Positions 11,130 through 43,587 of a stretch of DNA of 43,587 nucleotides are shown here, piece after piece. The stretch is from Escherichia phage K1G. Position numbers and translations under genes: made by a program. Location: the sequence record NC_027993.1, one strand, 5' to 3'. The notes under the pieces are model-generated. The model saw only the letters and a list, made by a program, of their open reading frames with translations, did not search any database and was not told the origin of the DNA. Every line of letters starts with the position of its first letter. Within the stretch, counting starts at the first letter, position 1.

Positions 11130-11131
11130 AT

Positions 11132-24824: not shown

Positions 24825-24828
24825 AACT

Positions 24829-24854
24829 AAGGCCCCAAACGGGGCCTTTTCTCT
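24829..24854 (+). terminator. rho-independent terminator (convergent junction, bidirectional)
   Basis: AAGGCCCC-AAAC-GGGGCCTT hairpin then TTCTCT. Confidence 0.7.
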
Positions 24855-24990
24855 ACTCTTCTGATAGCTTCTCCAGTACAAACGCCAGTTGCGCATTAGC
24901 GGCGTCTCTTTGCTGTCGTAGTCGTAGAACCTCTTCTTCGAGTTCCTTGATACGTTTTTGCAATGCGGGAATCGGGGCTATGACGTTCAT
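24853..24990 (-). CDS. small coiled-coil protein (45 aa)
   Basis: ATG overlaps stop of upstream gene (ATGA); sequence MNVIAPIPALQKRIKELEEEV... Confidence 0.3.
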   Translation of the reverse strand: MNVIAPIPALQKRIKELEEEVLRLRQQRDAANAQLAFVLEKLSEE

Positions 24991-25172
24991 TTCTTACCTT
25001 CGCTTTTCTTGAAACTGCGCTTTATATCCGGCAGAGTGTAGCATCGTGAATTTTCGTACTTACCGTCCGAGCTTACCAAAACAAAGCTGTTGCCGTCTTT
25101 TGATATGTACTCGATGGTGAAAGTATTGAATGAATGTACGCTGTATATTTCGTCTCCAACATTAAGTTTCAT
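24987..25172 (-). CDS. hypothetical protein
   Basis: 61-aa ORF, start overlaps helicase stop. Confidence 0.45.
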   Translation of the reverse strand: MKLNVGDEIYSVHSFNTFTIEYISKDGNSFVLVSSDGKYENSRCYTLPDIKRSFKKSEGKK

Positions 25173-27410: not shown

Positions 27411-27598
27411 TTCGCCACCAGAACTAACTCTTTACGCCCGAACGCCGTAACGTTACCGGTTACATCTTCGATAACCAGTTTACCGTTCGACTCGACGAAC
27501 ACCGTATCAACGGCAACAGGTTGACGTGTCTTAACGTTGAAAATCATGTCACCCGGTACGATGTCACGTGCTGGTTTGCGGTCATATTCGTGTTTCAT
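27407..27598 (-). CDS. hypothetical protein
   Basis: 63 aa, RBS AAGGAA, first gene downstream of promoter at 27632-27660. Confidence 0.5.
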   Translation of the reverse strand: MKHEYDRKPARDIVPGDMIFNVKTRQPVAVDTVFVESNGKLVIEDVTGNVTAFGRKELVLVAK

Positions 27599-27628
27599 TT
27601 CTCAATTCCTTATATTGTTGGTGTAGGA

Positions 27629-27913
27629 CTAACTATAATAGCTAGCTATTAGGTCGTCAACCTGTTTAAACGAACCAACGACAAAAACATTCGCACCACG
27701 TTTACGCATCCGCTCATGTTCCCGTAGCTGGTGCGGGTCTGGCTTCGTGTTCTCGTCTTTCTTAACCTCGACGAACCAGACTATGCCGCCGGGGAGAATT
27801 ACCAGCAGGTCTGGGGCGCCGGAACGCCCCTCGTAGGAGAGTTTGCGAACGAGGCCGCCAAGGGCCTCGAATCGGTCTTTTGCGTATTTCTGTACGCGGC
27901 CCTCTTTAGTCAT
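27629..27913 (-). CDS. VRR-NUC domain nuclease
   Basis: PD-(D/E)xK signature GAPDLLV...VEVKK; ATG at 27913 overlaps upstream stop. Confidence 0.6.
   Translation of the reverse strand: MTKEGRVQKYAKDRFEALGGLVRKLSYEGRSGAPDLLVILPGGIVWFVEVKKDENTKPDPHQLREHERMRKRGANVFVVGSFKQVDDLIASYYS
27632..27660 (-). promoter_or_regulatory. early promoter TTGACG-N17-TATAGT (family 1) with 16-bp perfect palindrome TAATAGCTAGCTATTA in spacer
   Basis: read on minus strand: TTGACGacctAATAGCTAGCTATTATAGTT. Confidence 0.6.
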
Positions 27914-28062
27914 GAGCGTAGATCCCAAGTAAGGAAAGCCCCTCCTAGAACGGCGACACCGACAAACTTAAAGAACAGGCCGTAACAGAACATCGCGGCT
28001 ATTCCTGCACCGAGTAGCAGTGCGAGCATGGTTACTATCACCCGAAATACGAACATTGTCAT
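27910..28062 (-). CDS. small membrane protein (50 aa, 2 predicted TM)
   Basis: strong RBS GGGAGGGG 9 nt upstream of ATG; hydrophobic MTMFVFRVIVTMLALLLGAGIAAMF... Confidence 0.4.
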   Translation of the reverse strand: MTMFVFRVIVTMLALLLGAGIAAMFCYGLFFKFVGVAVLGGAFLTWDLRS

Positions 28063-28144
28063 AATACGCACCCCTCCCGTTTGGTATGCTCAATTCCGCA
28101 GCGCGGGCAGATTCGACAGTCTTCTTCATAAAACCAGTAAATTT

Positions 28145-28276
28145 TCATTCCAGCACCCACAGATAAATTGCGATGAACATGCCCAATATGGCAACCATCA
28201 TGCCGTATTGACCCTCGTGACAGTAGACACCGGCAGCAAATCCCGCCAGTACCGCGATAATCAGTTTACTTGGCAT
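28145..28276 (-). CDS. small membrane protein (43 aa)
   Basis: ATG overlaps 3' end of polymerase gene; hydrophobic sequence MPSKLIIAVLAGFAAGVYCHEGQYGMMVAILGMFIAIYLWVLE. Confidence 0.3.
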   Translation of the reverse strand: MPSKLIIAVLAGFAAGVYCHEGQYGMMVAILGMFIAIYLWVLE

Positions 28277-30446: not shown

Positions 30447-30460
30447 TATTTTTGACCCTT

Positions 30461-30486
30461 AGTAAAAAGGCCCAATGAAGGGCCTT
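30461..30486 (-). terminator. rho-independent terminator for leftward transcripts
   Basis: minus-strand AAGGCCC-UUCAUU-GGGCCUU followed by UUUAC. Confidence 0.6.
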
Positions 30487-30505
30487 AGTTAAATTGATTC
30501 AGATA

Positions 30506-31132
30506 TTAGCGACGACGACGCTCGCGGCGCGGTGCTTCATCTTCTTCGTCGTCTTCCAGGTCATTTACGCTGGCAGCGACTTTAGAACCGCCAAACGCTT
30601 TACCTTCACCAACGTATTTAATAGCCAGCAGGTTAACGCCGAGGACTTTGTATTTCTGGCTGAACCAGATTTCAACGCTTACGTTAGCGACGCAGCCGCT
30701 GTAAACCTGTTCACCTTCAATCTGTTCGCCGTCTACATTGAAGTCCTGTTCTACCTGAGTCTCGCCTTTTTTAGAGGTTACAATCAGTGGCTGTTTCTGT
30801 GCCTTCGCCTTGAAGTAGAAGCCTTCCGGGAAGTCTTCAAACGGATTGTCGCGCTCGGCAATGTCTTTAATCGCACATTTATCCATGTGCTTACCTTCGC
30901 CGTAGTTGGACTTCATCCACTTCTCAGCGGCAGCTGCGCCCAACGCTTCTTCAACCACAGCGTAAACGGTGTCGTAGAGCGCGTCGATTTGTGCGTGGTC
31001 AGACGGCAGGATGATAGTCGCGCTGTACTGGCCTTTAGTGATTGAGCCATCATCGTTTTCACGGTCTTTTTCGCGTTCGAATACGTTAACCCATGCAGTG
31101 TTTACTTTACGCAGATTCAGTTTAATACCCAT
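30506..31132 (-). CDS. ssDNA-binding protein (DUF2815-like) with acidic C-terminal tail
   Basis: 208 aa, C-terminus DLEDDEEDEAPRRERRRR; adjacent to Cas4-like exonuclease and polymerase as in known phage replication modules. Confidence 0.65.
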   Translation of the reverse strand: MGIKLNLRKVNTAWVNVFEREKDRENDDGSITKGQYSATIILPSDHAQIDALYDTVYAVVEEALGAAAAEKWMKSNYGEGKHMDKCAIKDIAERDNPFEDFPEGFYFKAKAQKQPLIVTSKKGETQVEQDFNVDGEQIEGEQVYSGCVANVSVEIWFSQKYKVLGVNLLAIKYVGEGKAFGGSKVAASVNDLEDDEEDEAPRRERRRR

Positions 31133-31185
31133 CGTGATTTCTCGCTTTTCAGTTTACTCCGGGAACTGCCCGGCCAGTGATTAGA

Positions 31186-31214
31186 ACTATAATAGCTAAC
31201 TATTCGGGTGTCAA
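31186..31214 (-). promoter_or_regulatory. early promoter TTGACA-N17-TATAGT (family 1)
   Basis: minus strand TTGACAcccgAATAGTTAGCTATTATAGTT; near-palindromic AATAG-N4-CTATT. Confidence 0.6.
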
Positions 31215-31218
31215 CACT

Positions 31219-32469
31219 TTATTCCAAATCTTCTTCACTAACCTGATTCCACTCAGGACGTTTGTCGTCTGCCGTTGCGACACATGGTGCGCCTGGCTTA
31301 CGGGTAATAAACGGCTCAAGCGCTGCCATCTCATCCGCAGAAAGAACTTTTGCTGCCTCCGTAGGGGACATCAATACCTCTTTTTTGAGAATGTCGCCGT
31401 GTGACACTTCAATCGCATCGGCATCTTTCCACGCACGATTACCCAGGCGGCCTTCTACCAGTTTGTACCCTGGCACTTTATTACCGGAATGCAATGCGGC
31501 GGACATCGCTTTCTCAACCTTGTCGATGTGCTGGCGCAACAGCGGCAACTTCTCATACTCAACTACGAGTTGCTCCGTCGTCAGTTCCAGCACAAAGTCG
31601 TCTTCAAGTTCTTCCGCTAGTACAGAATTAACCGTCTTTGTACGCGCGGCACACTGTTCAGAGAACCGGCACCACTGGCAACCATCGACCGACGGTTTAA
31701 AGTCCGACGCTTTCAGGTTCTTCTTTCCACGGAAATAAGCATCAAGCGCTAACAGTGCCCGTTTCTGTGCGAACTTAGCGAACAGTTCCAGACCTTCGAC
31801 CGAGATGTCCCACTCTGACGCACCCCCCGCGTACGGCTGGAAGATGACCAGGCGCACTACTGTGATGTTATAACGTCTCTTGAGTCGGCGATAAACACCG
31901 AGAGCGTAAAGCATAAGCTGCTTGTTTTCTTTCGCTTCAACACGATGCCGTCCAGTTTTAAGGTCGCCAATAATGAGCATGTGCTCGTCGGTGTTCGCCA
32001 GTTCCTGGACAGCAACGAGGTCAGCCGTTCCGAACGTCTCGACACCTTCATACCCAGGATGCAATACCTCAGTAAGATTGACTCGCATTTCCAGCTTGGC
32101 GTAAGTCGCTACGTCGATAATCGCTTTGCAGTAGTCGGTGTACTTGCGCACCTGCTCAATCATGTCCGCCGTAATCAGTACCGCGCCTTTCATTGGGCTG
32201 ATTAGCGCCTTAATCTGGCCTTTACCTTCATCCAGCACGTAAGCGCCGACTTCACGCTCTAATGGCAGAGCAGTGCCTTTGATGTACTGGTTAAGGTGCA
32301 TCTCCGCTATGGTGTGGCATGCAGTCCCTGTAACGGCGGCTTTACCAGACGTGTTGGGAATATCTTTCTCACAGGCCAGTGATGCACTGCACGCCAGCCA
32401 CTTTTTAGCGCCAGACGGCGACAGTAAGGCGTGCACATCGTTATTGCCGCCGCGTTCCTTTAAAATCAT
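31219..32469 (-). CDS. Cas4/RecB-like PD-(D/E)xK exonuclease (DUF2800-like)
   Basis: N-terminal LLSPSGAKKWLACSA, nuclease motif IIGDLKTG...QLMLYA, C-terminal Cys cluster CQWCRFSEQC; ATG at 32469 with RBS GGGAGAG. Confidence 0.7.
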   Translation of the reverse strand: MILKERGGNNDVHALLSPSGAKKWLACSASLACEKDIPNTSGKAAVTGTACHTIAEMHLNQYIKGTALPLEREVGAYVLDEGKGQIKALISPMKGAVLITADMIEQVRKYTDYCKAIIDVATYAKLEMRVNLTEVLHPGYEGVETFGTADLVAVQELANTDEHMLIIGDLKTGRHRVEAKENKQLMLYALGVYRRLKRRYNITVVRLVIFQPYAGGASEWDISVEGLELFAKFAQKRALLALDAYFRGKKNLKASDFKPSVDGCQWCRFSEQCAARTKTVNSVLAEELEDDFVLELTTEQLVVEYEKLPLLRQHIDKVEKAMSAALHSGNKVPGYKLVEGRLGNRAWKDADAIEVSHGDILKKEVLMSPTEAAKVLSADEMAALEPFITRKPGAPCVATADDKRPEWNQVSEEDLE

Positions 32470-32738
32470 ACCCTGCTCTCCCACTGGTCAATTAAATGTC
32501 GTGTCTTATGGTCGCAGTGCATAGCCCAGCCATACATCGACTCGAAGACGTAAAAGTCCGGTTTGGCGAAAGTCGAGCGCTTAATATGTGACACGTGGCG
32601 GCCTATGTCTTTAGGCCGTGGCACTTTGCCTAAGTACGCCATATCTTCCATCTGGTGTGCACCGGACGGCGCACGCAATAACCATAGTGCCTCTGTGTTA
32701 TCCCGCCGGTCAACGGCGCGGTATAGTTGGTAAATCAT
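32466..32738 (-). CDS. hypothetical protein
   Basis: 90-aa ORF, stop overlaps exonuclease start. Confidence 0.5.
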   Translation of the reverse strand: MIYQLYRAVDRRDNTEALWLLRAPSGAHQMEDMAYLGKVPRPKDIGRHVSHIKRSTFAKPDFYVFESMYGWAMHCDHKTRHLIDQWESRV

Positions 32739-32781
32739 AATCCCGACCCTCAGTTAAAGCGGCCCGAAGGCCGCGGGATAG

Positions 32782-33303
32782 TTATTCTTCTTCGAAATAC
32801 TTGTTCTTGATTGCTGTCAGGCGCTCCAGATACTCAGCCAGGTCTTCGTCTTTAATCGCTGCAATCTTCATCTTCTTACCGGTAAACTCTTCCAGCAGTT
32901 CGTCAGAATCGTCGCACGCGGCATCGCTTGGGCCTTCGTTAATCGCATCGTCGATAGCCTGAATCTGGTCGCGCAGAGACTGGTAATCGACTTCTTCTTT
33001 CTCTTCTTCCGGCTCTGGCGTTGGTTCCTCTACTTTGTCCTTACGCGGCTTGCGCTTCGGCTTCTCTTCTTCTGCTGGTTTAGTGTCGACGATGTCTTCA
33101 CCTTCAACCGGGATTTCTTTCGCCTTCTCGACTTCTTCAAGTGCTTTAGCCAGTTCTTTTTTAACTGTCTCTACCCCAGTTACCGCGACGTCAACAGTCA
33201 ATTCACCTACAGATTTGCTAGTCGGTTGTTTCACACTGTTTGCAGCAATCAGTTCGTGGGCGACTACGAAACGTTCCAGTAATACCAAGAATTTCTCTAA
33301 CAT
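32782..33303 (-). CDS. acidic early protein
   Basis: 173 aa, strongly acidic C-terminal two thirds; strong RBS GAGGAGAG; first gene after promoter 33335-33363. Confidence 0.6.
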   Translation of the reverse strand: MLEKFLVLLERFVVAHELIAANSVKQPTSKSVGELTVDVAVTGVETVKKELAKALEEVEKAKEIPVEGEDIVDTKPAEEEKPKRKPRKDKVEEPTPEPEEEKEEVDYQSLRDQIQAIDDAINEGPSDAACDDSDELLEEFTGKKMKIAAIKDEDLAEYLERLTAIKNKYFEEE

Positions 33304-33334
33304 TTGTTTCTCTCCTCTCGTTTGGTATGGGCTA

Positions 33335-33363
33335 ACTATAATAGCGAACTATTCACTTGTCAA
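33335..33363 (-). promoter_or_regulatory. early promoter TTGACA-N17-TATAGT (family 1)
   Basis: minus strand TTGACAagtgAATAGTTCGCTATTATAGTT. Confidence 0.6.
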
Positions 33364-33427
33364 TGGGCTTTTCTAAAATAATTAATATGGTACTATTCAC
33401 ATATCAACTGACTAAGGAGTAATTGGC

Positions 33428-33643
33428 ATGCAACCATCTGAACTAGGTATCCGTGTAGAGCAACGCCGTAAAGAACTCGGTATCTCCCAGCGCCATCTGG
33501 CTGTCCTGGCCGGTGTTTCCCAAGGCGCGATTAACCAGCTGGCACTTGGGGTAACTCAGGACGTCCGCCCAGCGACGCTGTTTAAACTGGCGGAAGTGCT
33601 GCAAGTAGACGCCAAGTGGCTGGCGTTCGGTGAAGGGGCTTAA
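33428..33643 (+). CDS. XRE/Cro-type HTH transcriptional regulator
   Basis: 71 aa; HTH segment ISQRHLAVLAGVSQGAINQL; RBS AAGGAG; divergent from leftward early operon. Confidence 0.7.
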   Translation: MQPSELGIRVEQRRKELGISQRHLAVLAGVSQGAINQLALGVTQDVRPATLFKLAEVLQVDAKWLAFGEGA

Positions 33644-33660
33644 CGCCCCTTTCTTTTTAT
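33635..33660 (+). terminator. rho-independent terminator
   Basis: GGGGC-TTAAC-GCCCC hairpin followed by TTTCTTTTTAT. Confidence 0.7.
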
Positions 33661-33854
33661 TGCACCTTTATCGGGTATCTTTTGCGAAACTTACCTAACC
33701 CGCAGTATACGCTGTAAGCCTCTGTGTAACTGTACACAACATGATACCCGCGCCCGTAAGGAACTACGTTAAGAACTTCCACTACTTCGCCTCTGTGGTT
33801 GGTGTATTTATTACCTTTAAGTTCGTCGCTTACTTCTTTAAATTTACCGCTCAT
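33657..33854 (-). CDS. hypothetical protein
   Basis: 65-aa ORF, start overlaps primase-helicase stop. Confidence 0.5.
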   Translation of the reverse strand: MSGKFKEVSDELKGNKYTNHRGEVVEVLNVVPYGRGYHVVYSYTEAYSVYCGLGKFRKRYPIKVQ

Positions 33855-36118
33855 TCCAAATCCTCCTCTGTCACTGTCAGCATCTCATTCGGTTCATATA
33901 TTGTCTTCGGAATCTTGTTATCAGTTATCCGGGTGTTCAGCCTGTAACGGCCAGGGATTATCTGATTGTTTTCGTCAGTCCCCGGAACAAGATACCCAGC
34001 CTCAACCATTTTCTTAATCTTCCCGCGTTCTATGGCTTCTTTGGAGTTAAACGCCTTTGCATTGGGGTCAGACTGTGCGAGCTTATTAGCGGCGGCGACT
34101 GTGATGCCTTCGTTGCCGTTGTAGGTTCCTTCCGCCAGTTCAAACGCCGCCAGTATCGTGGCTTCTGAACTGTTGACGGCGTTCTCTATGGTTTTACGTA
34201 CGTTTTCTTTACCTTCTTTCGTCAACCCTTCTTCCCGCTCTTTCTCCTCGTCAGTCTTGAACGGCTCGAAACCCCACGGCATTAACACAAGTGCCTTATG
34301 CGGCTCCGGCAGGTCTAGGTTTACGATTGTGCCGTATTCCTCCGTGCTACCGAGGAACTCAACCGCACGGTACTCTTTCGGCGGCGGCGCTTCACGGAAC
34401 TGTACAGACTCCAGCACCATACCAACCGTCTTCTGTTGAGGCCCGTGCTTGAATTTCGAGTGGTATACATTTATCTGGCGGTCGGTAGCTCGTTCGATTG
34501 TCAGTTCCACGTCGACGCCAGCATACAGCGCCCCACTGCCACGGGCTTTCTTTCCGCCCTTCGGCGTATGGTGGACAACGCCTACCGCAGCTTTAGTCGC
34601 GTCACGTACTTCTTTCAGGATGGCGATAACCTTACCCATGCCGATTGCCGTTGATGAACTGTTCTCGTCGAACTTATCAATCGTCAGGGCTAGCGTCTGG
34701 TTGAGGGTGTCGAACGCAACCATGCCGATGGGTTCGTCACCCGCAGTTTCACGCATCAACTTAATCAGGCTTTTCAGTTTTCCGACTTCGCCCATGTCGA
34801 TGACATGTACATAATCTTTACCTTCCTCGCTATACTTAGCTGCGAGCGCATCGATACGGGTGCGTGTAGCTGCGCCGCCCTCACCGTCGATATAAAAATG
34901 GTGGCAACGCTGCGTATCTGCCCCCGCAAACCGGTATCCGGCGGCGCTCAGGTACATCATCCCCAGCGTATAGAACGATTTGTACGTGCCGGATTCCCCG
35001 ACAATATCCCAGATACAATCTGACGGCATGTACCCTTCAACGACGAAATCCGCCTTTACCGGTTCCGGTAACTCGTCATCCTCTGAGTCCTCGTCATCTT
35101 CCAGGTCGTCGAGGCTGCATGAAACAGATTCACGTGCACCCCATCCGATGGCCTCTGCGACTTCACTGAACGGCAGCCCCGTCGCATCGCACGCATACTT
35201 CCACACCTCTTTCGGTGACATGCCTTCGGTCGCCGTAATGTCAGTGTCGTGAATCATGGTTACGTTCGGCGCCTCATATCCCTCTCGCGGGAAGCACAGC
35301 AGGAAGTCATCCGGGCGCGGCGTCGGGTCGCTGTAGTTTTCTGCGTGTTCTGGCGTAGCTGGCATCTTAAGGCCTCGTGGCGTCATGATACCGCCATACT
35401 CGAACGCCAGTGCCTCGAACGCGTCGGTAAACGCGGTGCGCAGTTCTTCCGGTATCTGGTAATCCGATGCGCTGCTAACGTCAACGGCGGGGATGCCTTC
35501 CAGTAACTCGTCCGGGTCAATCAGGTCGTTGCGGCGTGACCAGATAACGGTAGAGCCAACCGGAGGCAGGTACATCGGTTGCGAAAGAGTGAACCCGCTG
35601 CGGTCAGCACCCATGCTTTTGAAGAAGTGTTCCAGCAATCCATGGCGAACACGGATGATGTCACCACCTTCGACCGGACGGGCCAGCGGCATGACGACGC
35701 GAAAGCGCGGGGACTCGTCGGTATGTGATGCCGTGGTATAGATACACATGCCCCGGCGGCTGCGTTTAACTAAGCGCACCGCTTCCTGATACTCTTCTGG
35801 TGTTGCGCTGTCGAAGTCCAGATACGCCAGCGACGATTTGCTTACAGACGCGTCACAGCGATAGAAAAAGCCTTTACGCGCTTGCTTAAAGTCGCCGGTT
35901 TCCGGGTCTTTTACAGTGCTGTGCGTCGAGTCGCACGCGGCGGTGATATAACCGGGCGCGGTCTTCGGGTTAATTCCGTCACGGACAGCATCGAGTGGCT
36001 GGATTAACTCTTTCAGGTCGTCCAGTGTTGCCGTGTGTGTGGTTCTGACGTTTATATCCTTTTTCTCAGCCCGCGCGTTGCGACGCGACCACGAGTAGGA
36101 TAAAATTACATCGGACAT
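33851..36118 (-). CDS. DNA primase/helicase (RecA-fold ATPase)
   Basis: 755 aa; Walker A-like GESGTYKSF, large N-terminal domain; RBS GAAGGAAA. Confidence 0.7.
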   Translation of the reverse strand: MSDVILSYSWSRRNARAEKKDINVRTTHTATLDDLKELIQPLDAVRDGINPKTAPGYITAACDSTHSTVKDPETGDFKQARKGFFYRCDASVSKSSLAYLDFDSATPEEYQEAVRLVKRSRRGMCIYTTASHTDESPRFRVVMPLARPVEGGDIIRVRHGLLEHFFKSMGADRSGFTLSQPMYLPPVGSTVIWSRRNDLIDPDELLEGIPAVDVSSASDYQIPEELRTAFTDAFEALAFEYGGIMTPRGLKMPATPEHAENYSDPTPRPDDFLLCFPREGYEAPNVTMIHDTDITATEGMSPKEVWKYACDATGLPFSEVAEAIGWGARESVSCSLDDLEDDEDSEDDELPEPVKADFVVEGYMPSDCIWDIVGESGTYKSFYTLGMMYLSAAGYRFAGADTQRCHHFYIDGEGGAATRTRIDALAAKYSEEGKDYVHVIDMGEVGKLKSLIKLMRETAGDEPIGMVAFDTLNQTLALTIDKFDENSSSTAIGMGKVIAILKEVRDATKAAVGVVHHTPKGGKKARGSGALYAGVDVELTIERATDRQINVYHSKFKHGPQQKTVGMVLESVQFREAPPPKEYRAVEFLGSTEEYGTIVNLDLPEPHKALVLMPWGFEPFKTDEEKEREEGLTKEGKENVRKTIENAVNSSEATILAAFELAEGTYNGNEGITVAAANKLAQSDPNAKAFNSKEAIERGKIKKMVEAGYLVPGTDENNQIIPGRYRLNTRITDNKIPKTIYEPNEMLTVTEEDLE

Positions 36119-36176
36119 GTTATATTTCCTTCAGCAAGTAATTTGGCCTCGGCGTTCACCGCGTCGGGGCTTTCTT

Positions 36177-36452
36177 TTATTCCAGGTCGCGGGAGATATT
36201 ACCCTCGGGCACCAACACTTTTCCAATACTTCTCGCTTTCTCTGTAATAGGCGTCGCTCTTGTTGCCCGATAAAACTTTCCTTTATTAAGAATCTCACCA
36301 TGTCGCTCGAGCACATCTAAAGCATGTTTGATCGGGTTTACACCGTAATTATCCAACCGGTATCTCCGAAGCCCGTCTACCGTAAAAGCGCCGTTCGCTT
36401 CGGTCAGTCTGCGTGCACACATTAATATGTGTTTCTGGAATTTAGTTAGCAT
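36177..36452 (-). CDS. hypothetical protein
   Basis: ATG at 36452 with RBS AAGGAG; overlaps 3' end of upstream HTH gene. Confidence 0.45.
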   Translation of the reverse strand: MLTKFQKHILMCARRLTEANGAFTVDGLRRYRLDNYGVNPIKHALDVLERHGEILNKGKFYRATRATPITEKARSIGKVLVPEGNISRDLE

Positions 36453-36621
36453 CTTTAACGTTCTCCTTAATCCACGCCTCCACAGTAGCGCGGTCAAAGG
36501 TACCTGGCTGACGGTAGCCGTTGATAACGCGGCAACACTCCGGGAACTTTCCTGACCGAAGCCAGCGATTAAGAGTCATAGGGGAAACCCCGATTAAGTC
36601 TGCTACTTCTTTCTGTGTCAT
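36442..36621 (-). CDS. AlpA/Xis-like HTH DNA-binding protein
   Basis: MTQKEVADLIGVSPMTLNRWLRSGKFP; ATG at 36621 with RBS GAGGG (track ORF begins at TTG 36651). Confidence 0.6.
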   Translation of the reverse strand: MTQKEVADLIGVSPMTLNRWLRSGKFPECCRVINGYRQPGTFDRATVEAWIKENVKDAN

Positions 36622-36778
36622 TTTACGCGCCCTCTCTATCAAGTGAAACAACTATAACACCTACAATAGACAAACACAACCTATTGACAAAATAAAATGT
36701 AGCTGTAAAATCAACGTATCGAATGGCTTTAGTTAAGAATTACTTAGAAACAATATTCTTAAGTCTCGGGTACTTAAA

Positions 36779-36798
36779 GCCCCGCCATAAAGCGGGGC
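36779..36798 (-). promoter_or_regulatory. leader hairpin, reverse-orientation copy of the 4618-4637 hairpin
   Basis: GCCCCGC-CATAAA-GCGGGGC on + strand equals reverse complement of the spanin leader hairpin. Confidence 0.35.
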
Positions 36799-37042
36799 GC
36801 TAAATAGTACTCTTGGTAACGTTAGTATCTAAGTTTCCTCAAAGTAACAGCAAGTGGCAAGAAAGCCCCCGTCTATTTAAATTTTACCCTCCTTCATAAG
36901 CCACTGATAATTAAAAGTTTCTATAGTTGCCGTAAACGTGGAAGAGAGTACTTCACTTCGCTGGGGTGGGCTAACGCCCACCCACTGCGTTGCGTACTCT
37001 TTTAAGAAACGAAAGAATCACAACGGCAACGTAACTATTCTC

Positions 37043-37071
37043 TTGCACACCCCAACATAATAGGATACTAT
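37043..37071 (+). promoter_or_regulatory. early promoter TTGCAC-N17-TACTAT (family 2)
   Basis: cTTGCACaccccaacatAATAGGATACTATTcac. Confidence 0.5.
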
Positions 37072-37096
37072 TCACTTATCGAAACGAGACAGAGGA

Positions 37097-37297
37097 GTGA
37101 GGGTTATGTTTAAACGTGGTCAGTTGGTTAAATACTCCGACGATAAACACGGCATAATTGAATTAAAATCTGCTTTATTTCCAGGAAAGTACGTAGTTAC
37201 CGTGCAAAATGTGAGAGGAGTAAATTCACAAATATACGTAGCGGAGGAGAACTTAAAACTCATCGGCAACAATTTTAAATTTAAAGGGGGAGGGTGA
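37097..37297 (+). CDS. hypothetical early protein
   Basis: 66 aa, RBS GAGGAGTGAGGG. Confidence 0.5.
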   Translation: MRVMFKRGQLVKYSDDKHGIIELKSALFPGKYVVTVQNVRGVNSQIYVAEENLKLIGNNFKFKGGG

Positions 37298-37301
37298 AGT
37301 G

Positions 37302-37502
37302 ATGGAAGAATTATTTGAAGAACTGAAACATCATGATTTCGAGGAAATATATTTCGTAGCTGAACGCTACGAGGTGCATCTGGCGGACGGTATAACGGTT
37401 ATTACATCTACCAGCGAGCGAATGTTAAATAGCTTACGAGCAATACGAACGGCATCGAATCATGATGCTTGTGCCGACGACGCTGAGGGAGGTTGCCGTT
37501 AA
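37302..37502 (+). CDS. hypothetical early protein
   Basis: 66 aa from ATG 37302, RBS GGGGGAGGG. Confidence 0.5.
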   Translation: MEELFEELKHHDFEEIYFVAERYEVHLADGITVITSTSERMLNSLRAIRTASNHDACADDAEGGCR

Positions 37503-37705
37503 TGCGAATCCGTATAACTGACCGCAGGCTTATCCGTATAACTGACCGCAGGCTTATCCGTATAACTGACCGCAGGCTTATAGATTTCGGTATCTCGGTA
37601 GGTGATGTTTTTCCGGCGTTCAGCATCAACCATTATGGTTTTATGATTGAGTACAAAGGGTCGTTATTGTTCGTGTATCGGGATGAATGTGAGGTTCTGG
37701 TATGA
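37502..37705 (+). CDS. small protein containing three RITDRRLI repeats
   Basis: ATG overlaps upstream stop (TAATG), RBS GAGGGAGG; 3 x 24 bp tandem repeat is in frame. Confidence 0.4.
   Translation: MRIRITDRRLIRITDRRLIRITDRRLIDFGISVGDVFPAFSINHYGFMIEYKGSLLFVYRDECEVLV
37510..37581 (+). repeat. perfect tandem direct repeat, 3 x 24 bp (CCGTATAACTGACCGCAGGCTTAT)
   Basis: three identical consecutive 24-mers read directly. Confidence 0.9.
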
Positions 37706-37857
37706 GAGAAGCATTTGAACGGTGGGCTGTGGTCGAGGGTCTGCCGGTTAACAAGGGTTCAAAGAAAGAGTACCTGAACGTTAAGACGCGTCTCGCGTGG
37801 CGGGCGTGGAAAGCTGGTGTGCAATCCTTGATTGAAAGAGGTGTGAGGTATGGGTGA
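37702..37857 (+). CDS. small hypothetical protein (51 aa)
   Basis: ATGA overlap with upstream gene; sequence MREAFERWAVVEGLPVNKGSKKEYLNVKTRLAWRAWKAG... Confidence 0.4.
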   Translation: MREAFERWAVVEGLPVNKGSKKEYLNVKTRLAWRAWKAGVQSLIERGVRYG

Positions 37858-38050
37858 GTGGATTAAGTGTAGTGAGATGCTGCCGGGTAATGGGTATACG
37901 GATAAAGAGTTCCTGGTGTATGAAACGTTAAATAACGCAGTTCAGCACGATTATTACATAGTTCCTGATGACGGGAGAAAGCCTTTCTGGAATCACTACG
38001 ATAAGTACGTGACGCACTGGATGCCGTTACCCGAGCCGCCAGAAGTGTGA
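37850..38050 (+). CDS. DUF551-like protein
   Basis: N-terminus MGEWIKCSEMLPGNG resembles DUF551 proteins (W-I...LP motif). Confidence 0.5.
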   Translation: MGEWIKCSEMLPGNGYTDKEFLVYETLNNAVQHDYYIVPDDGRKPFWNHYDKYVTHWMPLPEPPEV

Positions 38051-38184
38051 TGTTCAATAGTTTGGGATTTTACTGAGTGACTTACGCTGCTACACAGCAG
38101 CGTACAACTTTAACTTAGTGTCGTCAAAAGGCGACACTTTCATCAAACGCAACAATCGAAGCGACTATTGCAGGAGATGCAACA

Positions 38185-38358
38185 ATGATTACTAAAGAAC
38201 AGGCTGAACGACTAATCACGTTAATCGACACGATGGTTGATGCGAAAACCGATTTAGCAACGGCAACAGAGGAATCCGCTACCTGGTCGCTTGAAGAAAG
38301 AGAAGCAGAAGCGGAAAGGGAGTTACTGGCGTTCATCGACTCTATAACACACCAATAA
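38185..38358 (+). CDS. small acidic hypothetical protein (57 aa)
   Basis: RBS AGGAG 10 nt upstream of ATG. Confidence 0.45.
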   Translation: MITKEQAERLITLIDTMVDAKTDLATATEESATWSLEEREAEAERELLAFIDSITHQ

Positions 38359-38365
38359 AATTTAC

Positions 38366-38394
38366 TTGCACACTAAGATAGAATAGGCTACTAT
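38366..38394 (+). promoter_or_regulatory. early promoter TTGCAC-N17-TACTAT (family 2)
   Basis: cTTGCACactaagatagAATAGGCTACTATTcat. Confidence 0.5.
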
Positions 38395-38425
38395 TCATTT
38401 ACACAAACGAGAGGAGAGACGGAAG

Positions 38426-38614
38426 ATGTTTAATTCAAACGAGCATTTGATTAAGGTTACCCCGTGTTGGGCCGGGTATCAGTTGGCGCACGACGGAAAG
38501 CACGTACCTAAACTTGTATTTGCCAATTATGAAGTTGCCCGCGGTTGGGTTAGCGCCGGAAAGAAAGGCGAACGCGGAATAATGAAGGTTGGATTTGTAG
38601 GAGATACGAAATGA
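38426..38614 (+). CDS. hypothetical early protein
   Basis: 62 aa, RBS GAGAGGAGAG. Confidence 0.5.
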   Translation: MFNSNEHLIKVTPCWAGYQLAHDGKHVPKLVFANYEVARGWVSAGKKGERGIMKVGFVGDTK

Positions 38615-39039
38615 ATAACAACGACGCAGTATTCGAGTACTTGGTAGCGGCAATGCACCTAACACTGGACGAACGTAAGGCGCACAAGCAGCAGTGCGAA
38701 GACCTGGCGCACGAGGTGCAGTCACTTAAGAACCAGTTACGTGATGCTTCGGCGCAGATTAAGGAGCTACACATGGCGTTGGCTACTGCTACAGGCGACG
38801 TGGAGGCGTACAAACTTATCCGCAAGGGCGAGCAATCTGGTTGCCGTAAGGAAGACGTTCAGGGATGCGTGCACGAGTGGGCGCTTGATGAAAAAGGTGA
38901 CTACTTCGTTTGCACTAAATGCGGTAAGCAAGAAGCGGAATTGAACGATTGCCAACACACTAATACTGTTGGTTTGCGTAAGGGTTTTGCGCCGGGGTTT
39001 ACTAAAAAGTGTCTGGATTGCGGGGCTAAACTGAAATGA
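38611..39039 (+). CDS. coiled-coil plus Zn-ribbon protein
   Basis: C-terminal CVHEW...CTKCGK...CLDCG; paralogous motif to 41292 and 41530 ORFs. Confidence 0.55.
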   Translation: MNNNDAVFEYLVAAMHLTLDERKAHKQQCEDLAHEVQSLKNQLRDASAQIKELHMALATATGDVEAYKLIRKGEQSGCRKEDVQGCVHEWALDEKGDYFVCTKCGKQEAELNDCQHTNTVGLRKGFAPGFTKKCLDCGAKLK

Positions 39040-39239
39040 CCAGCATCTTATTTATCTGGGTACTGTCGGCGGGCCAGATGCAACTAGCGGCATCGGAAAC
39101 GTTTTATTCGATGGAGGCGTGCCAGTCAGCGGCACGCGCCGCAGAGAACGCGCACTTTCTGTTTCAGGGTGACAAGCCCAACGATTCAGAGGTACGCGCT
39201 ATCTGCTCACCTAAGCGACTTGGTAAACAGGAGAAATAA
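39036..39239 (+). CDS. small protein with N-terminal hydrophobic/signal segment
   Basis: 67 aa, ATGA overlap. Confidence 0.5.
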   Translation: MTSILFIWVLSAGQMQLAASETFYSMEACQSAARAAENAHFLFQGDKPNDSEVRAICSPKRLGKQEK

Positions 39240-39532
39240 TGTCGTTAGCAACTGACATCCTGAAACGAAGCGGCCTTGCGCCGCTGTCGCCGAGAGCGAA
39301 TACGCGTATACACAAGCGCCGCCGTAATGCACTGTACCCCGAGATTCAGGCCAGACGCAAAGCGGTACGCGCCTGTGGATTCCAGAACGGGAAGGCTGTG
39401 AATCTCGGTGAGTTTAAAACACAGGAACGCGCAGCAATCGCTAATCGGCTATTTAATTACTGGAAATCGTTGGGATACGATGATATTCCGACGAAACCAC
39501 AGAGACGACAATACATCTGGCGCCATAAATAA
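39239..39532 (+). CDS. hypothetical basic protein
   Basis: 97 aa, Arg/Lys-rich. Confidence 0.5.
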   Translation: MSLATDILKRSGLAPLSPRANTRIHKRRRNALYPEIQARRKAVRACGFQNGKAVNLGEFKTQERAAIANRLFNYWKSLGYDDIPTKPQRRQYIWRHK

Positions 39533-39607
39533 ACCGTTATTAAGATAATTCCTACCCGTGGTATCCTCCAGTTACTGCATACTTAATACGCACCTGGAGG
39601 ATTCATC

Positions 39608-39916
39608 TTGGATAAATTTACTGAAACAGTGACGGGGTGGCTTCTCGCCGCCGCACTGGTCGGTGGATTGGTCGGGCTAAGACAACATAAAAAGTCTATA
39701 TCCGGGCCGATTGACGGACTGGTATTTCTTCTCACCGGCTTCGCGTGTGCTATTTTCGGTGCACCTCTTGCCGCTCAATGGTTCGGTATTACCGGTGAGC
39801 GTGAGATAGCTGGCCTCGGATTCATCATTGCCATTCTCTGGATGCCTATCTATTCCCGCCTTTCTGGCATCGTATCGGGTGGCGATATTGCCCGCCCAGG
39901 AGGACCGCATGACTGA
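39608..39916 (+). CDS. holin candidate (TTG start)
   Basis: 102 aa with 2-3 hydrophobic helices; RBS GGAGGA 6 nt upstream of TTG; immediately upstream of endolysin cassette. Confidence 0.5.
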   Translation: MDKFTETVTGWLLAAALVGGLVGLRQHKKSISGPIDGLVFLLTGFACAIFGAPLAAQWFGITGEREIAGLGFIIAILWMPIYSRLSGIVSGGDIARPGGPHD

Positions 39917-40181
39917 GCTATTCTGGTTTGTCACAATGCTTTCAATGGGCGCTTCGTCCCTGTTCAACGTGTATAATGAACGCGTGGACGACGGGCTGTT
40001 CGGGCGTGTTCTCTATATCCTGACTGCTATCGTCTGTGCCGCCGGATGTGTTCACCTGTTACAGGGCAGCATGTCGCCTACGCTGCCTGAGACATTAATC
40101 ACATTAGTCGCGCTGCGCCAGATTCGCCAGGCGTGGCTGTCATACGGAGGACATAAGCGTGTCTCGAAATATTTCAGATAA
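39909..40181 (+). CDS. second holin-like membrane protein (holin/antiholin)
   Basis: ATG 39909 with RBS AGGAGG; two hydrophobic segments; overlaps neighbours. Confidence 0.5.
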   Translation: MTELFWFVTMLSMGASSLFNVYNERVDDGLFGRVLYILTAIVCAAGCVHLLQGSMSPTLPETLITLVALRQIRQAWLSYGGHKRVSKYFR

Positions 40182-40644
40182 TGGATTGCATTTCTGTGCC
40201 GCGTTCGAGGGATTCCGCGGAACTGCGTATCGCGCTACGCCGAATGAGAAGTATCTTACTATTGGCTACGGTCACTACGGGCCAGACGTAACACCAGGTA
40301 AGACCATCACACCAGGACAGGGCTTGCTGTTACTGAATCGCGATATGGCTAAGGCTGTAGCTGCTGTTGACGCAGCAGCACACCATTCGCTTACACAGGC
40401 ACAGTTCGATGCGGTGTGTGACCTGGTCTATAACGTGGGGGCTGGCGTGATTTCGGCTACTACCGGTACAGGTAAGGCACTGCGCTCCGGTGATATCGCG
40501 ACGTTACGGGCTAAGCTGGCGCTGTTCATCAACCAGAACGGCAAACCACTACTTGGCCTGCGTCGCCGTACAGCCGGGCGTCTGGCGCTGTTCGACGGTA
40601 AACCGTGGCAAGAGGCTGAGGCTATCGGTAGGGCGGTTAAATGA
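40159..40644 (+). CDS. endolysin, T4-lysozyme-like (GH24), GTG start
   Basis: AAFEGFRGTAY...TIGYGHYG catalytic-region motif; RBS ACGGAGGA. Confidence 0.8.
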   Translation: MSRNISDNGLHFCAAFEGFRGTAYRATPNEKYLTIGYGHYGPDVTPGKTITPGQGLLLLNRDMAKAVAAVDAAAHHSLTQAQFDAVCDLVYNVGAGVISATTGTGKALRSGDIATLRAKLALFINQNGKPLLGLRRRTAGRLALFDGKPWQEAEAIGRAVK

Positions 40645-40771
40645 TGGACGAATACGAAGGCGTTTAGTAAACTTACATCCACGCTGTTTGTGCCTGCATA
40701 CTAAGCCCCGGTAAACCCGAAGCAGCAGCCCAAGCGGTGGAGACTGCGTAGGGTTCAGGGGCTTATGCCCG

Positions 40772-40803
40772 AAACCCGGACCGCGAATCCGGGTTTTATT
40801 TTA
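40772..40803 (+). terminator. rho-independent terminator
   Basis: ACCCGGA-CCGCGAA-TCCGGGT hairpin followed by TTTATTTTA. Confidence 0.6.
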
Positions 40804-40807
40804 CCAA

Positions 40808-40836
40808 TTGACACCTGAGACTAATCCGACGATACT
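40808..40836 (+). promoter_or_regulatory. candidate promoter TTGACA-N17-GATACT
   Basis: perfect -35, 4/6 -10; sits between two terminators. Confidence 0.35.
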
Positions 40837-40842
40837 TAAATC

Positions 40843-40909
40843 ACCTCCTGTTCCATCCCTCTGCTCTCCAGTTTTATCCCGGCCCTTACCCAGCCGGGAT
40901 TTTTTTTAT
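40843..40909 (+). ncRNA. candidate ~65-nt small RNA with anti-Shine-Dalgarno-like motif AUCACCUCCU
   Basis: promoter-terminator unit with no ORF; C/U-rich body; 10-nt match to 16S rRNA 3' end sequence. Confidence 0.25.
40878..40909 (+). terminator. rho-independent terminator
   Basis: CCCGGC-CCTTACCCA-GCCGGG hairpin followed by ATTTTTTTT. Confidence 0.7.
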
Positions 40910-40929
40910 CCGTTTTCTGTAATGACTAG

Positions 40930-40958
40930 TTGACTATTACCTTAGACCCTATTATATT
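40930..40958 (+). promoter_or_regulatory. promoter TTGACT-N17-TATATT
   Basis: hexamers and 17-bp spacer read directly; upstream of ORF 40992. Confidence 0.5.
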
Positions 40959-40991
40959 TACTCCATCGACAACGAGAACGGAGTAGAGAAA

Positions 40992-41141
40992 ATGAAAATC
41001 ACAGACATCGAAGCATTCAAAGACGCACAACTGATGGCACGCATCGCCGTTAGTAACCTGAGCAACAGCATTCCAGCGGACGCGTTCTGGTTCGCTGCGA
41101 TGCAGACACTTAAAGCAGCTTATGCAGGAGAGAAGAAATGA
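40992..41141 (+). CDS. small hypothetical protein (49 aa)
   Basis: RBS GGAGTAGAG; ATGA overlap with next ORF. Confidence 0.45.
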   Translation: MKITDIEAFKDAQLMARIAVSNLSNSIPADAFWFAAMQTLKAAYAGEKK

Positions 41142-41299
41142 GCGAACAAGGCCCAGTAAGCCAGCCGTTACGAGTAGGCCGTAAAGTCAGTCACACCCCG
41201 TTCCCGACACGCGAGGAACTGATGAAACGTAACAGTTTCCCCGGCCCGGACAAGAACAAGTATCTCAATCGCATGTGGGGAGAGTGTAAAAATGACTGA
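41138..41299 (+). CDS. small hypothetical protein (53 aa)
   Basis: translationally coupled chain of ORFs. Confidence 0.4.
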   Translation: MSEQGPVSQPLRVGRKVSHTPFPTREELMKRNSFPGPDKNKYLNRMWGECKND

Positions 41300-41537
41300 C
41301 CGTGAATACGAAAAGATGATGGTTGAGGCCGTTAACGGCGGCGCAGACATTAGCCATGTGATGCACGTCCTGAATACTAAAATCGCTGTAGCTGAGCAAA
41401 TGGTTGAGTCGCTTTATGAGACGCGCCGTGAACTGATTAACCGCTTCAACCTGAACAAGTGCGAACATGAGTTCGACTACAATCCGAAGGATATGTGTGG
41501 GCAGTGTATTAAATGCGGGGTACAGCGTCATGCCTAA
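41292..41537 (+). CDS. small Zn-ribbon protein
   Basis: C-terminal CEHEFDYNPKDMCGQCIKCG. Confidence 0.5.
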   Translation: MTDREYEKMMVEAVNGGADISHVMHVLNTKIAVAEQMVESLYETRRELINRFNLNKCEHEFDYNPKDMCGQCIKCGVQRHA

Positions 41538-42823: not shown

Positions 42824-42925
42824 GACTACTAATCATCCCTAACGCCTGGGCCATTCCCGTAGCTAACGACCATTACGGCGGCGACGGTAAAAGAGCACCA
42901 CGCCACGGCCTATACAACTGATACA

Positions 42926-42949
42926 AGCCCTCTACCGAGGGCTTTTCTG
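42926..42949 (+). terminator. rho-independent terminator ending the early rightward operon
   Basis: AGCCCTC-TACC-GAGGGCT hairpin followed by TTTCTGT. Confidence 0.6.
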
Positions 42950-43042
42950 TACATCCCGCCCAATCCCCTTATATAATCCCTTTAGACGCGTAGGGCGCGT
43001 CTGATGCGCTCTGATGGTCAGACGCATATGCAAGGGGATTCT

Positions 43043-43587
43043 ATGAAGCTGAAACTCAAGCAGCCATCGCCAGAGGTGGTGCAAGCTGCACATGAAGAAG
43101 CTGTTAGCGCAAACCGCCGACGTAAACGACCGCGCGGTAAACAGAGCCTTTATCAATCGTCCCGTAATTCCGCAGCGTTGTGGGACCCGGACTATTGCGA
43201 CGAATTAATTCGTTTCTTCGACCGCACGTCATGGGAGGCTATGCCGACAGGAGCGCACGGAGACTACAAAGCAGTCATTGCGGATAAACCGCCATCACTG
43301 GCTCGCTTCGCCTTACACATCGGTGTAACTATCCCGATTATTAAGCTGTGGCTGCGTGAGATTCCCGCATTTGCAGAAGCCTATGAAACAGCACAGGCGC
43401 TGGAAGAGGCATATTTCACTGAGACAGGGGCCGCGGGCATCTCGGCTACATTTGCTGCCGCTAAGCTGAGCCTCGGCAAAGAGAAACCAGTTGAATCCAC
43501 CGAAGAAACGGCACCGACCGAGATTATTTTTAGTGTTGCAGAGCCTGTAGGTAAAATTGTAACAACGAATATGGGTGAGGTAGAGGA
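43043..43587 (+). CDS. putative terminase small subunit, 3' end runs off window (continues into position 1-4 if circularised)
   Basis: RBS AGGGGA; 181 codons open to the window end; last partial codon GA + A(1) then TGA(2-4) overlapping terL ATG; position upstream of terL. Confidence 0.55.
   Translation, partial: MKLKLKQPSPEVVQAAHEEAVSANRRRKRPRGKQSLYQSSRNSAALWDPDYCDELIRFFDRTSWEAMPTGAHGDYKAVIADKPPSLARFALHIGVTIPIIKLWLREIPAFAEAYETAQALEEAYFTETGAAGISATFAAAKLSLGKEKPVESTEETAPTEIIFSVAEPVGKIVTTNMGEVE

What the first reader, a model, noticed from the sequence alone, without database searches (positions are those of the whole stretch)
43043..43587. Window ends join seamlessly: terS stop overlaps terL start across the linear ends
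The terS-like ORF has no stop within the window. Appending position 1 onward completes the codon GAA and gives TGA at positions 2-4, overlapping the terL ATG at 1-3 in the classic ATGA coupling. The window therefore looks like a full circularly permuted genome opened at terL.
Basis: seen in the sequence. Interest (0 to 1): 0.35.

Follow-up and report, generated by a model that had tools for sequence, protein, structure and literature searches.

The report
Circular phage map cut at terL
The two ends of this window are the arbitrary opening point of a circular map of a K1G-like coliphage (genus Kagunavirus): the small-terminase gene runs off the right end and finishes at bases 1-4, overlapping the large-terminase start, an arrangement that is ordinary and already annotated in sister phages.

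Summary
The ORF from ATG 43043 has 181 codons plus "GA" at the window end. Base 1 completes GAA, and TGA at 2-4 overlaps the terL ATG at 1-3.

By itself this arithmetic has a chance of about 1 in 12. The comparative evidence settles it:
- The artificial junction (last 300 + first 300 nt) is contiguous at 100% coverage in 38 phage records opened elsewhere.
- In four full genomes, window bases 43587 and 1 map to adjacent bases.
- 30 loci carry the same GAGGAATGAGTAT junction.
- RefSeq K1H, a sister phage, is typed circular and already annotates this gene as a CDS running across the record origin (41049..4).

The ORF is a real small terminase. Its family profile retrieves 509 distant relatives, and 79 of the 103 scanned are Pfam GP3_package (P22 gp3). 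A confident model has P22 gp3 and Sf6 gp1 as its top fold hits.

"Circularly permuted" describes the virion DNA and is inferred, not shown here. It rests on PhageTerm pac/headful calls for relatives with the same terS-terL type and on the absence of any terminal repeat in the window.

Verdict: real, ordinary, already known.

Side note: a 270-nt stretch (42923-43190), upstream of and into terS, is far more conserved than synonymous sites nearby. It is a candidate promoter or pac region.

The parts
43043..43587 (+). Small terminase (terS) gene, codons 1-181 plus the first two bases (GA) of codon 182. The gene runs off the right end of the window.
1..4 (+). ATGA overlap. Base 1 completes the last terS codon (GAA), bases 2-4 are the terS stop TGA, and bases 1-3 are the terL start ATG.
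   Evidence: Identical GAGGAATGAGTAT in 30 loci. The same 4-nt overlap is annotated in PQ579973, KF148055, PV040721 and KY295895. K1H RefSeq CDS 41049..4 crosses the origin.
1..1251 (+). Large terminase (terL) gene, 416 aa.
   Evidence: Pfam Terminase_6N (E 4e-21) and Terminase_6C (E 6e-11), both above gathering cut-off. PHROG 2 terminase large subunit. Walker A GFGSGKT read at codons 25-31. 100% aa identity to phage P AB-2017 TerL.
43577..43580 (+). Shine-Dalgarno-like GAGG for terL, 7 nt before the ATG at position 1. It lies inside the 3' end of terS, so terL's ribosome-binding site sits at the opposite end of the window from terL.
   Evidence: Read directly (TGAGGTAGAGGA|ATG). Conserved in all 30 window-type loci. 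Its function is inferred.
43032..43037 (+). Shine-Dalgarno-like AAGGGG for the terS start at 43043.
   Evidence: Read. Invariant across 36 distinct relatives.
42923..43042 (+). Ultra-conserved intergenic leader upstream of terS. It holds a hairpin plus T-run (42925-42950), the promoter-like TGTACA-18-TATAAT (42948-42977), the palindrome AGACGCG-TAGGG-CGCGTCT (42985-43003) and GCGTCTGA/TCAGACGC (42997-43025). Conservation continues into terS codons 1-50 (to about 43190).
   Evidence: Nucleotide diversity 0.03-0.04, against 0.21-0.38 just upstream and 0.26-0.43 at third codon positions of the rest of terS. Repeats, promoter-like site, no Rfam family. A role as late promoter/leader and/or pac site is inferred, not tested.
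1264..2745 (+). Portal gene, which completes the terS-terL-portal packaging module.
   Evidence: PHROG 145 portal protein, E 2.6e-148, and Pfam DUF4055. Annotated as portal in relatives.

Best explanation
The window is the complete genome of a K1G-like siphovirus of E. coli (Guernseyvirinae, genus Kagunavirus). It is written as a circular map that the depositor linearised at the first base of terL, so the window ends are a database convention and not DNA ends.

Across the join, terS (182 aa, P22 gp3/Sf6 gp1-type small terminase) ends in TGA at bases 2-4, and terL starts at ATG 1-3. The terL Shine-Dalgarno GAGG lies inside terS, 7 nt upstream.

Inferred from established knowledge of overlapping stop/start pairs: ribosomes finishing terS re-initiate on terL, which ties the expression of the two terminase subunits together.

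Inferred from relatives and protein families: the terminase recognises a pac site on replicated concatemers, cuts once, and fills heads with slightly more than one genome length. Virion DNAs are then terminally redundant and circularly permuted, which is why reads assemble into a circle with no natural ends.
For: **Junction arithmetic.**

**Junction in relatives.**
- Contiguous in 38 records opened elsewhere.
- Adjacent-base mapping and whole-genome collinearity after circularisation in 4 complete genomes.
- Identical ATGA junction in 30 loci, including 26 IMG/VR contigs.
- 4-nt terS/terL overlap annotated independently in four GenBank records.
- RefSeq K1H is typed circular, with terS as CDS 41049..4.

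**Habit of this genome.** With the window treated as a circle, the scan lists 29 ATGA/GTGA/TTGA overlaps between open frames of at least 60 codons, position 1 among them. Several fall at real gene junctions (10321, 10713, 11126, 18946, 39036, and 13366, 25172, 27410 on the minus strand).

**Protein identities.**
- terL.
- terS.

**Taxonomy.** 83% of the window aligns at about 90% identity to Kagunavirus BUCT825.

**Headful packaging in relatives.**
- PhageTerm pac/headful for Shashou, Snoke and Sciku. These carry the same junction at 87-88% identity.
- No termini for fBC-Eco01.
- K1G/K1H TerL described as closely related to phages with headful strategies.

**No terminal repeat in the window.**

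**Precedent.** The P22 RefSeq record also has terS running across the record start.
Against: - No reads or virion-DNA data for this phage were available, so circular permutation is not demonstrated for it.
- TerL has no sequence-level hit to any solved terminase, and I did not build a TerL tree with reference packaging types myself.
- Direct Pfam, NCBIfam and PDB searches with the protein itself found nothing.
- Translational coupling is inferred from the overlap only.
- One paper on a relative describes the terminase as acting on a cos site, in generic text. That same paper's PhageTerm run found no termini.
Confidence: 0.9

Rival explanations
1. The genome has fixed physical ends (cohesive ends or short direct terminal repeats) somewhere else on the map. 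The assembly collapsed them and the depositor rotated the record to terL. The join at 43587/1 would still be real, but 'circularly permuted' would be wrong.
For: - Nothing in the window itself tells a permuted genome from a fixed-end genome once it is written as a circle.
- The fBC-Eco01 paper's text speaks of a cos site.
- Pfam Terminase_6 membership alone does not fix the packaging type.
Against: - PhageTerm called pac/headful for three relatives with the same terS-terL type.
- PhageTerm found no termini in fBC-Eco01.
- K1G/K1H TerL is described as closely related to phages with headful strategies.
- TerS is of the P22 gp3/Sf6 gp1 type, both pac phages.
Confidence: 0.07
2. The window is an incomplete or mis-trimmed assembly. 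Bases are missing (or duplicated) between the right end and position 1, and the ATGA fit is a coincidence.
For: The arithmetic alone has a chance probability of about 1/12.
Against: - In four complete genomes opened elsewhere, window bases 43587 and 1 map to adjacent bases.
- 30 loci have the identical 13-nt junction.
- The completed protein aligns end to end with 182-aa homologues.
Confidence: 0.01
3. The upstream ORF is not a terminase subunit but an unrelated small protein that happens to precede terL.
For: - No direct Pfam, NCBIfam or PDB sequence hit.
- The first shallow-alignment model was poor.
- hhalign against P22 gp3 was not significant.
Against: - Transitive homology: 79 of 103 profile-retrieved relatives are PF16677 GP3_package and 37 are PF20901 Sf6_terminase.
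- The A3 profile hits Sf6 gene 1 protein in the PDB, E 0.012.
- For the confident model, P22 gp3 and Sf6 gp1 are the best fold matches out of 350,542 and 48,164 chains.
- PHROG 3064 is named 'terminase'.
- The ORF sits in the conserved position, overlapping terL.
Confidence: 0.02

Closest known systems
Escherichia phage K1H (NC_027994 / GU196278) and K1ind1-3, genus Kagunavirus
   Same: - Same terS-terL junction: 96.5% nt identity over the terS region, TerL 99.5% aa.
- Records opened at the same terL ATG.
- RefSeq types the K1H record circular and annotates terS across the origin, 41049..4.
   Different: - The window is 43,587 bp against 41,632 bp, with mosaic differences elsewhere.
- RefSeq K1H uses an upstream in-frame start (195 aa). 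This corresponds to window 43004, which I consider less likely than 43043.
- From my own memory the window's length matches phage K1G (GU196277). That record is not in the collection, so this is unverified.
Salmonella phage P22 gene 3 / gene 2 (small and large terminase; headful pac packaging)
   Same: - terS lies directly upstream of and overlaps terL (by 23 nt in P22).
- The RefSeq record is likewise opened so that terS runs across the record start, with the pac site inside terS.
- The window's TerS model has P22 gp3 as its best Foldseek match, and its distant relatives are PF16677 members.
   Different: - No direct sequence significance (BLASTP E 0.12, hhalign E 0.28-0.33).
- The window's TerS has an extra N-terminal helix of about 40 residues and a different C-terminal tail.
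- TerL is unrelated at BLAST level to P22 gp2.
- The pac site of this phage is not mapped.
Shigella phage Sf6 gene 1 protein (small terminase, 3HEF/4DYC)
   Same: - Marginal profile hit, E 0.012, on the HTH-following helix.
- 37 of 103 distant relatives match PF20901.
   Different: Only 16% identity over 94 aligned residues. Similarity is at superfamily level only.
E. coli siphophages Shashou, Snoke, Sciku (Guernseyvirinae-like)
   Same: The same terS-terL junction sequence at 87-88% identity over the 600-nt probe. PhageTerm predicts pac/headful packaging.
   Different: Their records were opened in front of terS rather than at terL. The junction lies at about 590 in those records.

Membership tests
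Overlapping (ATGA) terS-terL gene pair joined across a circular map | Upstream ORF stop overlaps the downstream start by 4 nt when the ends are joined | tested here: met
   GA + A = GAA, TGA at 2-4, ATG at 1-3.
Overlapping (ATGA) terS-terL gene pair joined across a circular map | No bases missing at the join: contiguous in independent genomes opened elsewhere | tested here: met
   38 records at 100% coverage. Adjacent-base mapping in 4 full genomes. 30 loci with the identical junction.
Overlapping (ATGA) terS-terL gene pair joined across a circular map | Translation of terL depends on translation of terS (coupling proper) | not testable with these tools
   Only the overlap and a GAGG 7 nt upstream are seen. 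Reporter fusions are needed.
Small terminase, P22 gp3 / Sf6 gp1 superfamily (Pfam PF16677, PF20901) | The protein itself scores above the Pfam cut-off | tested here: not met
   No Pfam family at E <= 0.01, or at E <= 5 for any of the 21 close homologues. No NCBIfam hit.
Small terminase, P22 gp3 / Sf6 gp1 superfamily (Pfam PF16677, PF20901) | Homology through intermediate sequences | tested here: met
   The A1 profile finds 509 proteins at E <= 1e-3. Of 103 aligned, 79 match PF16677 (best E 2e-13) and 37 match PF20901. The A3 profile hits Sf6 gene 1 protein, E 0.012.
Small terminase, P22 gp3 / Sf6 gp1 superfamily (Pfam PF16677, PF20901) | Fold: helix-turn-helix DNA-binding part followed by a long oligomerisation helix | tested here: met
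   [not shown]
Small terminase, P22 gp3 / Sf6 gp1 superfamily (Pfam PF16677, PF20901) | Ring oligomer that binds pac DNA and stimulates TerL | not testable with these tools
   Only a monomer model was made. No biochemistry.
Large terminase (Pfam Terminase_6N + Terminase_6C) | ATPase and RNaseH-like nuclease domains above the curated cut-off | tested here: met
   76.1 bits (cut-off 22) and 43 bits (cut-off 22.6). Walker A GFGSGKT read.
Headful (pac) packaging with circularly permuted, terminally redundant virion DNA | No fixed termini in virion DNA; reads span every point of the circle | not testable with these tools
   No reads for this phage. Relatives: PhageTerm pac/headful, no termini, evidence of permuted genomes.
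Headful (pac) packaging with circularly permuted, terminally redundant virion DNA | TerL groups with terminases of known headful phages | not tested
   Taken from PMC5582158, where K1G/K1H TerL is described as closely related to phages with headful strategies. My own searches found no characterised reference among TerL relatives.
Headful (pac) packaging with circularly permuted, terminally redundant virion DNA | The deposited sequence has no terminal repeat or cohesive-end signature at its ends | tested here: met
   No shared 12-mer between the first and last 2 kb. The ends abut inside a gene.
Genus Kagunavirus (Guernseyvirinae) | Genome-wide nucleotide similarity and synteny with classified members | tested here: met
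   83% of the window aligns at about 90% identity to BUCT825, and 70% aligns, mostly at 85-98% identity, to G AB-2017; both are classified Kagunavirus. K1ind1 matches at 92.9% over 94% of the first 20 kb.

The most novel reading that the evidence does not exclude
The 270-nt segment 42923-43190 may be the still-unmapped packaging initiation (pac) region of Guernseyvirinae, possibly combined with the late promoter and leader. It covers the 120 nt upstream of terS plus terS codons 1-50. It is kept almost invariant across 35 relatives, while neighbouring synonymous sites vary 3- to 10-fold more. It carries three AGACGC/GCGTCT motifs arranged as two palindromes. If this reading is right, the record's opening point lies about 0.6 kb from the true preferred end of the first headful.
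Probability: 0.3. Interest if true: 0.3.

Novelty: already known. Interest (0 to 1): 0.07.

Why it matters
The main value is for annotation. A gene caller run on the linear record will lose or truncate terS and will see terL without its ribosome-binding site. Treating the record as circular recovers a 182-aa small terminase.

It also tells a reader that the window ends carry no biological meaning, so nothing should be inferred from "terminal" sequence here.

Biologically, the arrangement is the standard one for pac-type tailed phages and is already annotated in the sister phage K1H. No open question is affected.

The only lead of some interest is the ultra-conserved region in front of terS. 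It could guide mapping of the pac site for phage-engineering work on Kagunavirus.

Tried and rejected
- **Direct family assignment of the 182-aa protein.** Pfam, NCBIfam and PDB sequence searches, also with the 21-sequence profile, found nothing.
- **First AlphaFold model.** The shallow alignment gave pLDDT 58, so its fold hits were not usable as evidence.
- **Direct comparison with P22 gp3.** BLASTP and hhalign gave collinear but non-significant alignments, E 0.12-0.33.
- **TerL against solved structures by sequence.** No hit.
- **TerL tblastn against phages.** No experimentally characterised packaging reference appeared among the relatives, so I could not type TerL myself.
- **Rfam on the terS leader.** Only a chance-level snoRNA match.
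- **Junction against 5,426 complete E. coli genomes.** No match, so there is no prophage or plasmid copy.
- **Terminal repeats between the window ends.** None.
- **Papers not held.** Bull et al. 2010 (the K1G/K1H description) and Anany et al. 2015 (Jerseyvirinae) are not in the library.
- **Identity of the window as phage K1G.** The length matches from memory, but this could not be verified. The record is absent from the phage collection; the best whole-region match is 92.9%.
- **P22-equivalent pac position inside terS.** I considered whether codons of about 107-116 stand out. Third-position diversity there is not clearly lower than in the flanks, so the idea was dropped.

Full report
**1. The observation**

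The right end of the window holds an ORF that starts at ATG 43043, preceded by AAGGGG at 43032-43037. It runs to the last base without a stop: 545 nt, i.e. 181 codons plus GA. The other two frames of the same stretch contain many stops. The window begins with ATGAGT, and the ATG at 1-3 opens a 416-aa ORF, 1..1251. Joining the ends gives GA+A = GAA and then TGA at 2-4, so the stop overlaps the ATG in an ATGA. The completed protein is 182 aa.

For a random juxtaposition this fit needs the right phase (1/3) and an A at position 4 (about 1/4), so about 1/12. The arithmetic alone would not carry the claim. The first and last 2 kb share no 12-mer, so the record holds no terminal repeat and the ends simply abut.

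**2. Is the join real?**

The window belongs to the K1G-like coliphages.
- The terS region is 96-97% identical to phages MirsaeidiM_Esher4 and K1H. It matches 276 phage records, mostly Escherichia and Salmonella phages of Guernseyvirinae.
- An artificial probe made of the last 300 and first 300 bases is found uninterrupted at 100% coverage in 38 records, at very different record coordinates.
- I fetched four complete genomes opened elsewhere: PQ579973, Jersey KF148055, BUCT825 PV040721 and G AB-2017 KY295895. In each, window base 43587 and window base 1 align to neighbouring bases (18363/18362, 581/582, 18584/18585, 22109/22108). The rest of the window is collinear once it is treated as a circle.
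- All four records annotate a 4-nt overlap between the two genes.
- A scan of IMG/VR with the protein gave 50 loci. Together with the four GenBank records, 30 of 51 loci carry the identical GAGGAATGAGTAT junction.
- More distant Jerseyvirus-type loci have a different terS C-terminus and a different terL. They still show overlapping or abutting genes.
- The sister records K1H, K1ind1, K1ind2 and K1ind3 end exactly where the window ends.
- RefSeq types K1H as circular and annotates this gene as a CDS running from 41049 across the origin to base 4.

So nothing is missing between the ends, and the arrangement is already on record.

**3. What the two genes are**

*terL.* It scores above the curated cut-offs for Pfam Terminase_6N and Terminase_6C. 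It has a Walker A GFGSGKT. It is followed by a portal gene.

*The upstream ORF.* This was harder.
- It matches PHROG 3064 ('terminase', E 1.7e-69), but no Pfam, NCBIfam or PDB sequence.
- A profile of 21 homologues (A1) searched against 1.84 billion representatives found 509 relatives at E <= 1e-3.
- Of 103 of these, 79 are members of Pfam PF16677 (GP3_package, the P22 small terminase family) and 37 match PF20901 (Sf6 terminase small subunit).
- The deeper profile touches Sf6 gene 1 protein in the PDB at E 0.012.
- With the deep alignment, AlphaFold gives a confident model: pLDDT 83.9, and above 87 for residues 41-140.
- Its five best Foldseek matches among 350,542 chains are all P22 gp3 (prob 0.97-0.99, with the next hit at 0.15).

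The scores are modest. Together with the position and the overlap with terL, they make the small-terminase assignment sound. Direct pairwise and profile comparison with P22 gp3 was collinear but not significant.

**4. How it most likely works**

*Shown:* the stop/start overlap, and a GAGG 7 nt before the terL ATG that lies inside terS and is conserved in all window-type loci. With the window treated as a circle, the scan lists 29 ATGA/GTGA/TTGA overlaps between open frames of at least 60 codons, and several fall at real gene junctions. This is the phage's usual way of joining genes.

*Inferred from established knowledge of such overlaps:* ribosomes terminating terS re-initiate at terL, which ties the synthesis of the two subunits together.

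*Packaging type (inferred):*
- PhageTerm predicted pac/headful packaging for Shashou, Snoke and Sciku. These have the same junction at 87-88% identity.
- PhageTerm found no termini in fBC-Eco01, which matches the junction at 90%.
- Baig et al. describe K1G/K1H TerL as closely related to phages with headful strategies.
- The TerS is of the type used by the pac phages P22 and Sf6.

Headful packaging from concatemers gives permuted, terminally redundant virion DNA. Such DNA assembles as a circle, and the depositor then chose terL as base 1. P22's own RefSeq record shows the same consequence: gene 3 runs across the record start.

No reads were available, so permutation of this particular phage is inferred, not shown.

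**5. Rivals**

- Fixed ends elsewhere on the map (cos or direct terminal repeats) cannot be excluded from sequence alone, but this runs against the evidence from relatives (confidence about 0.07).
- Missing sequence at the join is excluded.
- A non-terminase identity for the ORF is unlikely.

**6. Comparison with what is known, and novelty**

This is the standard terS-terL module of a pac-type siphovirus. It is already annotated in K1H and in dozens of relatives. Novelty: already known. Interest is low. The practical point is that linear gene calling on this record truncates terS.

**7. Seen on the way**

- *Ultra-conserved leader.* The 120 nt upstream of terS and the first 50 codons of terS are far more conserved at nucleotide level than their surroundings. 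Diversity is 0.03-0.04 in the leader and 0.05-0.16 at third positions of codons 1-50. It is 0.26-0.43 at third positions of the rest of terS and 0.21-0.38 just upstream of 42923. The boundary at 42923 is sharp.
- *Contents of that segment.* A hairpin with a T-run, a promoter-like TGTACA-18-TATAAT, and two palindromes built from AGACGC/GCGTCT. There is no Rfam family. It is a candidate late promoter/leader and/or pac region. I found no paper in the held library that maps a pac site for these genera.
- *terS start.* The in-frame upstream ATG at 43004, used by RefSeq for K1H, lies inside this element. It is GTG in most relatives, and its 13 extra residues are not conserved as protein in distant homologues. 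The start at 43043 is therefore more likely.
- *Two module types.* The terS C-terminal 40 residues and terL occur as two alternative linked types within the subfamily.

Noticed in passing
window 42923-43190: This stretch is the terS leader plus terS codons 1-50, and it is ultra-conserved. Nucleotide diversity is 0.03-0.04 (0.006 at the palindrome AGACGCGTAGGGCGCGTCT, 42983-43002). Third-position diversity in codons 1-50 is 0.05-0.16, against 0.26-0.43 at third positions of the rest of terS. The 5' boundary at 42923 is sharp. The stretch contains a hairpin with a T-run, a promoter-like TGTACA-18-TATAAT, and three AGACGC/GCGTCT motifs. It is a candidate late promoter/leader and/or pac site. No Rfam match.
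   Followed up: partly
window 43004, 43028, 43043: There are three in-frame ATG candidates for the terS start, giving 195, 187 or 182 aa. RefSeq K1H uses the equivalent of 43004. Most GenBank relatives use 43043. The 13-residue extension is ATG/GTG-variable, overlaps a conserved palindrome, and is poorly conserved as protein in distant homologues. The start at 43043, with AAGGGG 5 nt upstream, looks right.
   Followed up: partly
window 43463-43587 and 1-1251; loci L030-L053: The last 40 or so residues of TerS come in two alternative versions, and each travels with one of two TerL types. The window type is >=95% aa identical in 72 records. The other type is about 54% identical and occurs in most Jerseyvirus and some Kagunavirus. 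This suggests exchange of a terS-C-terminus plus terL module, as expected if the TerS tail contacts TerL.
   Followed up: partly
window 7987-8736 (+): A 249-aa ORF sits between head genes. It is present in PQ579973, where it is annotated 'endonuclease', but absent from BUCT825, G AB-2017 and Jersey, where the alignments break at about 7931 and resume at about 8797. It looks like an inserted homing-endonuclease-type gene.
   Followed up: no
window 26586-27410 (-): A 274-aa ORF, annotated as DNA methyltransferase in PQ579973, is missing from BUCT825 and G AB-2017 (alignment gap 26595-27407). Jersey carries a gene annotated as C-5 cytosine methylase at the same position. This appears to be a variable methylase slot next to the helicase gene.
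   Followed up: no
L057/L058 (Salmonella phage P22, NC_002371): The P22 RefSeq record is opened inside gene 3 at the annotated pac site (4..25). Its terS CDS therefore also runs across the record start (41461..225), and it overlaps terL by 23 nt. This is a textbook precedent for the layout seen in the window.
   Followed up: yes
window 14524-17023 and 36188-37556: These stretches have little or no match of 300 nt or more in the four fetched relatives; only BUCT825 aligns across 14524-17023. The first lies upstream of and in the 5' part of the tape-measure gene, and the second lies in the early-gene region. They are mosaic segments and were not examined.
   Followed up: no
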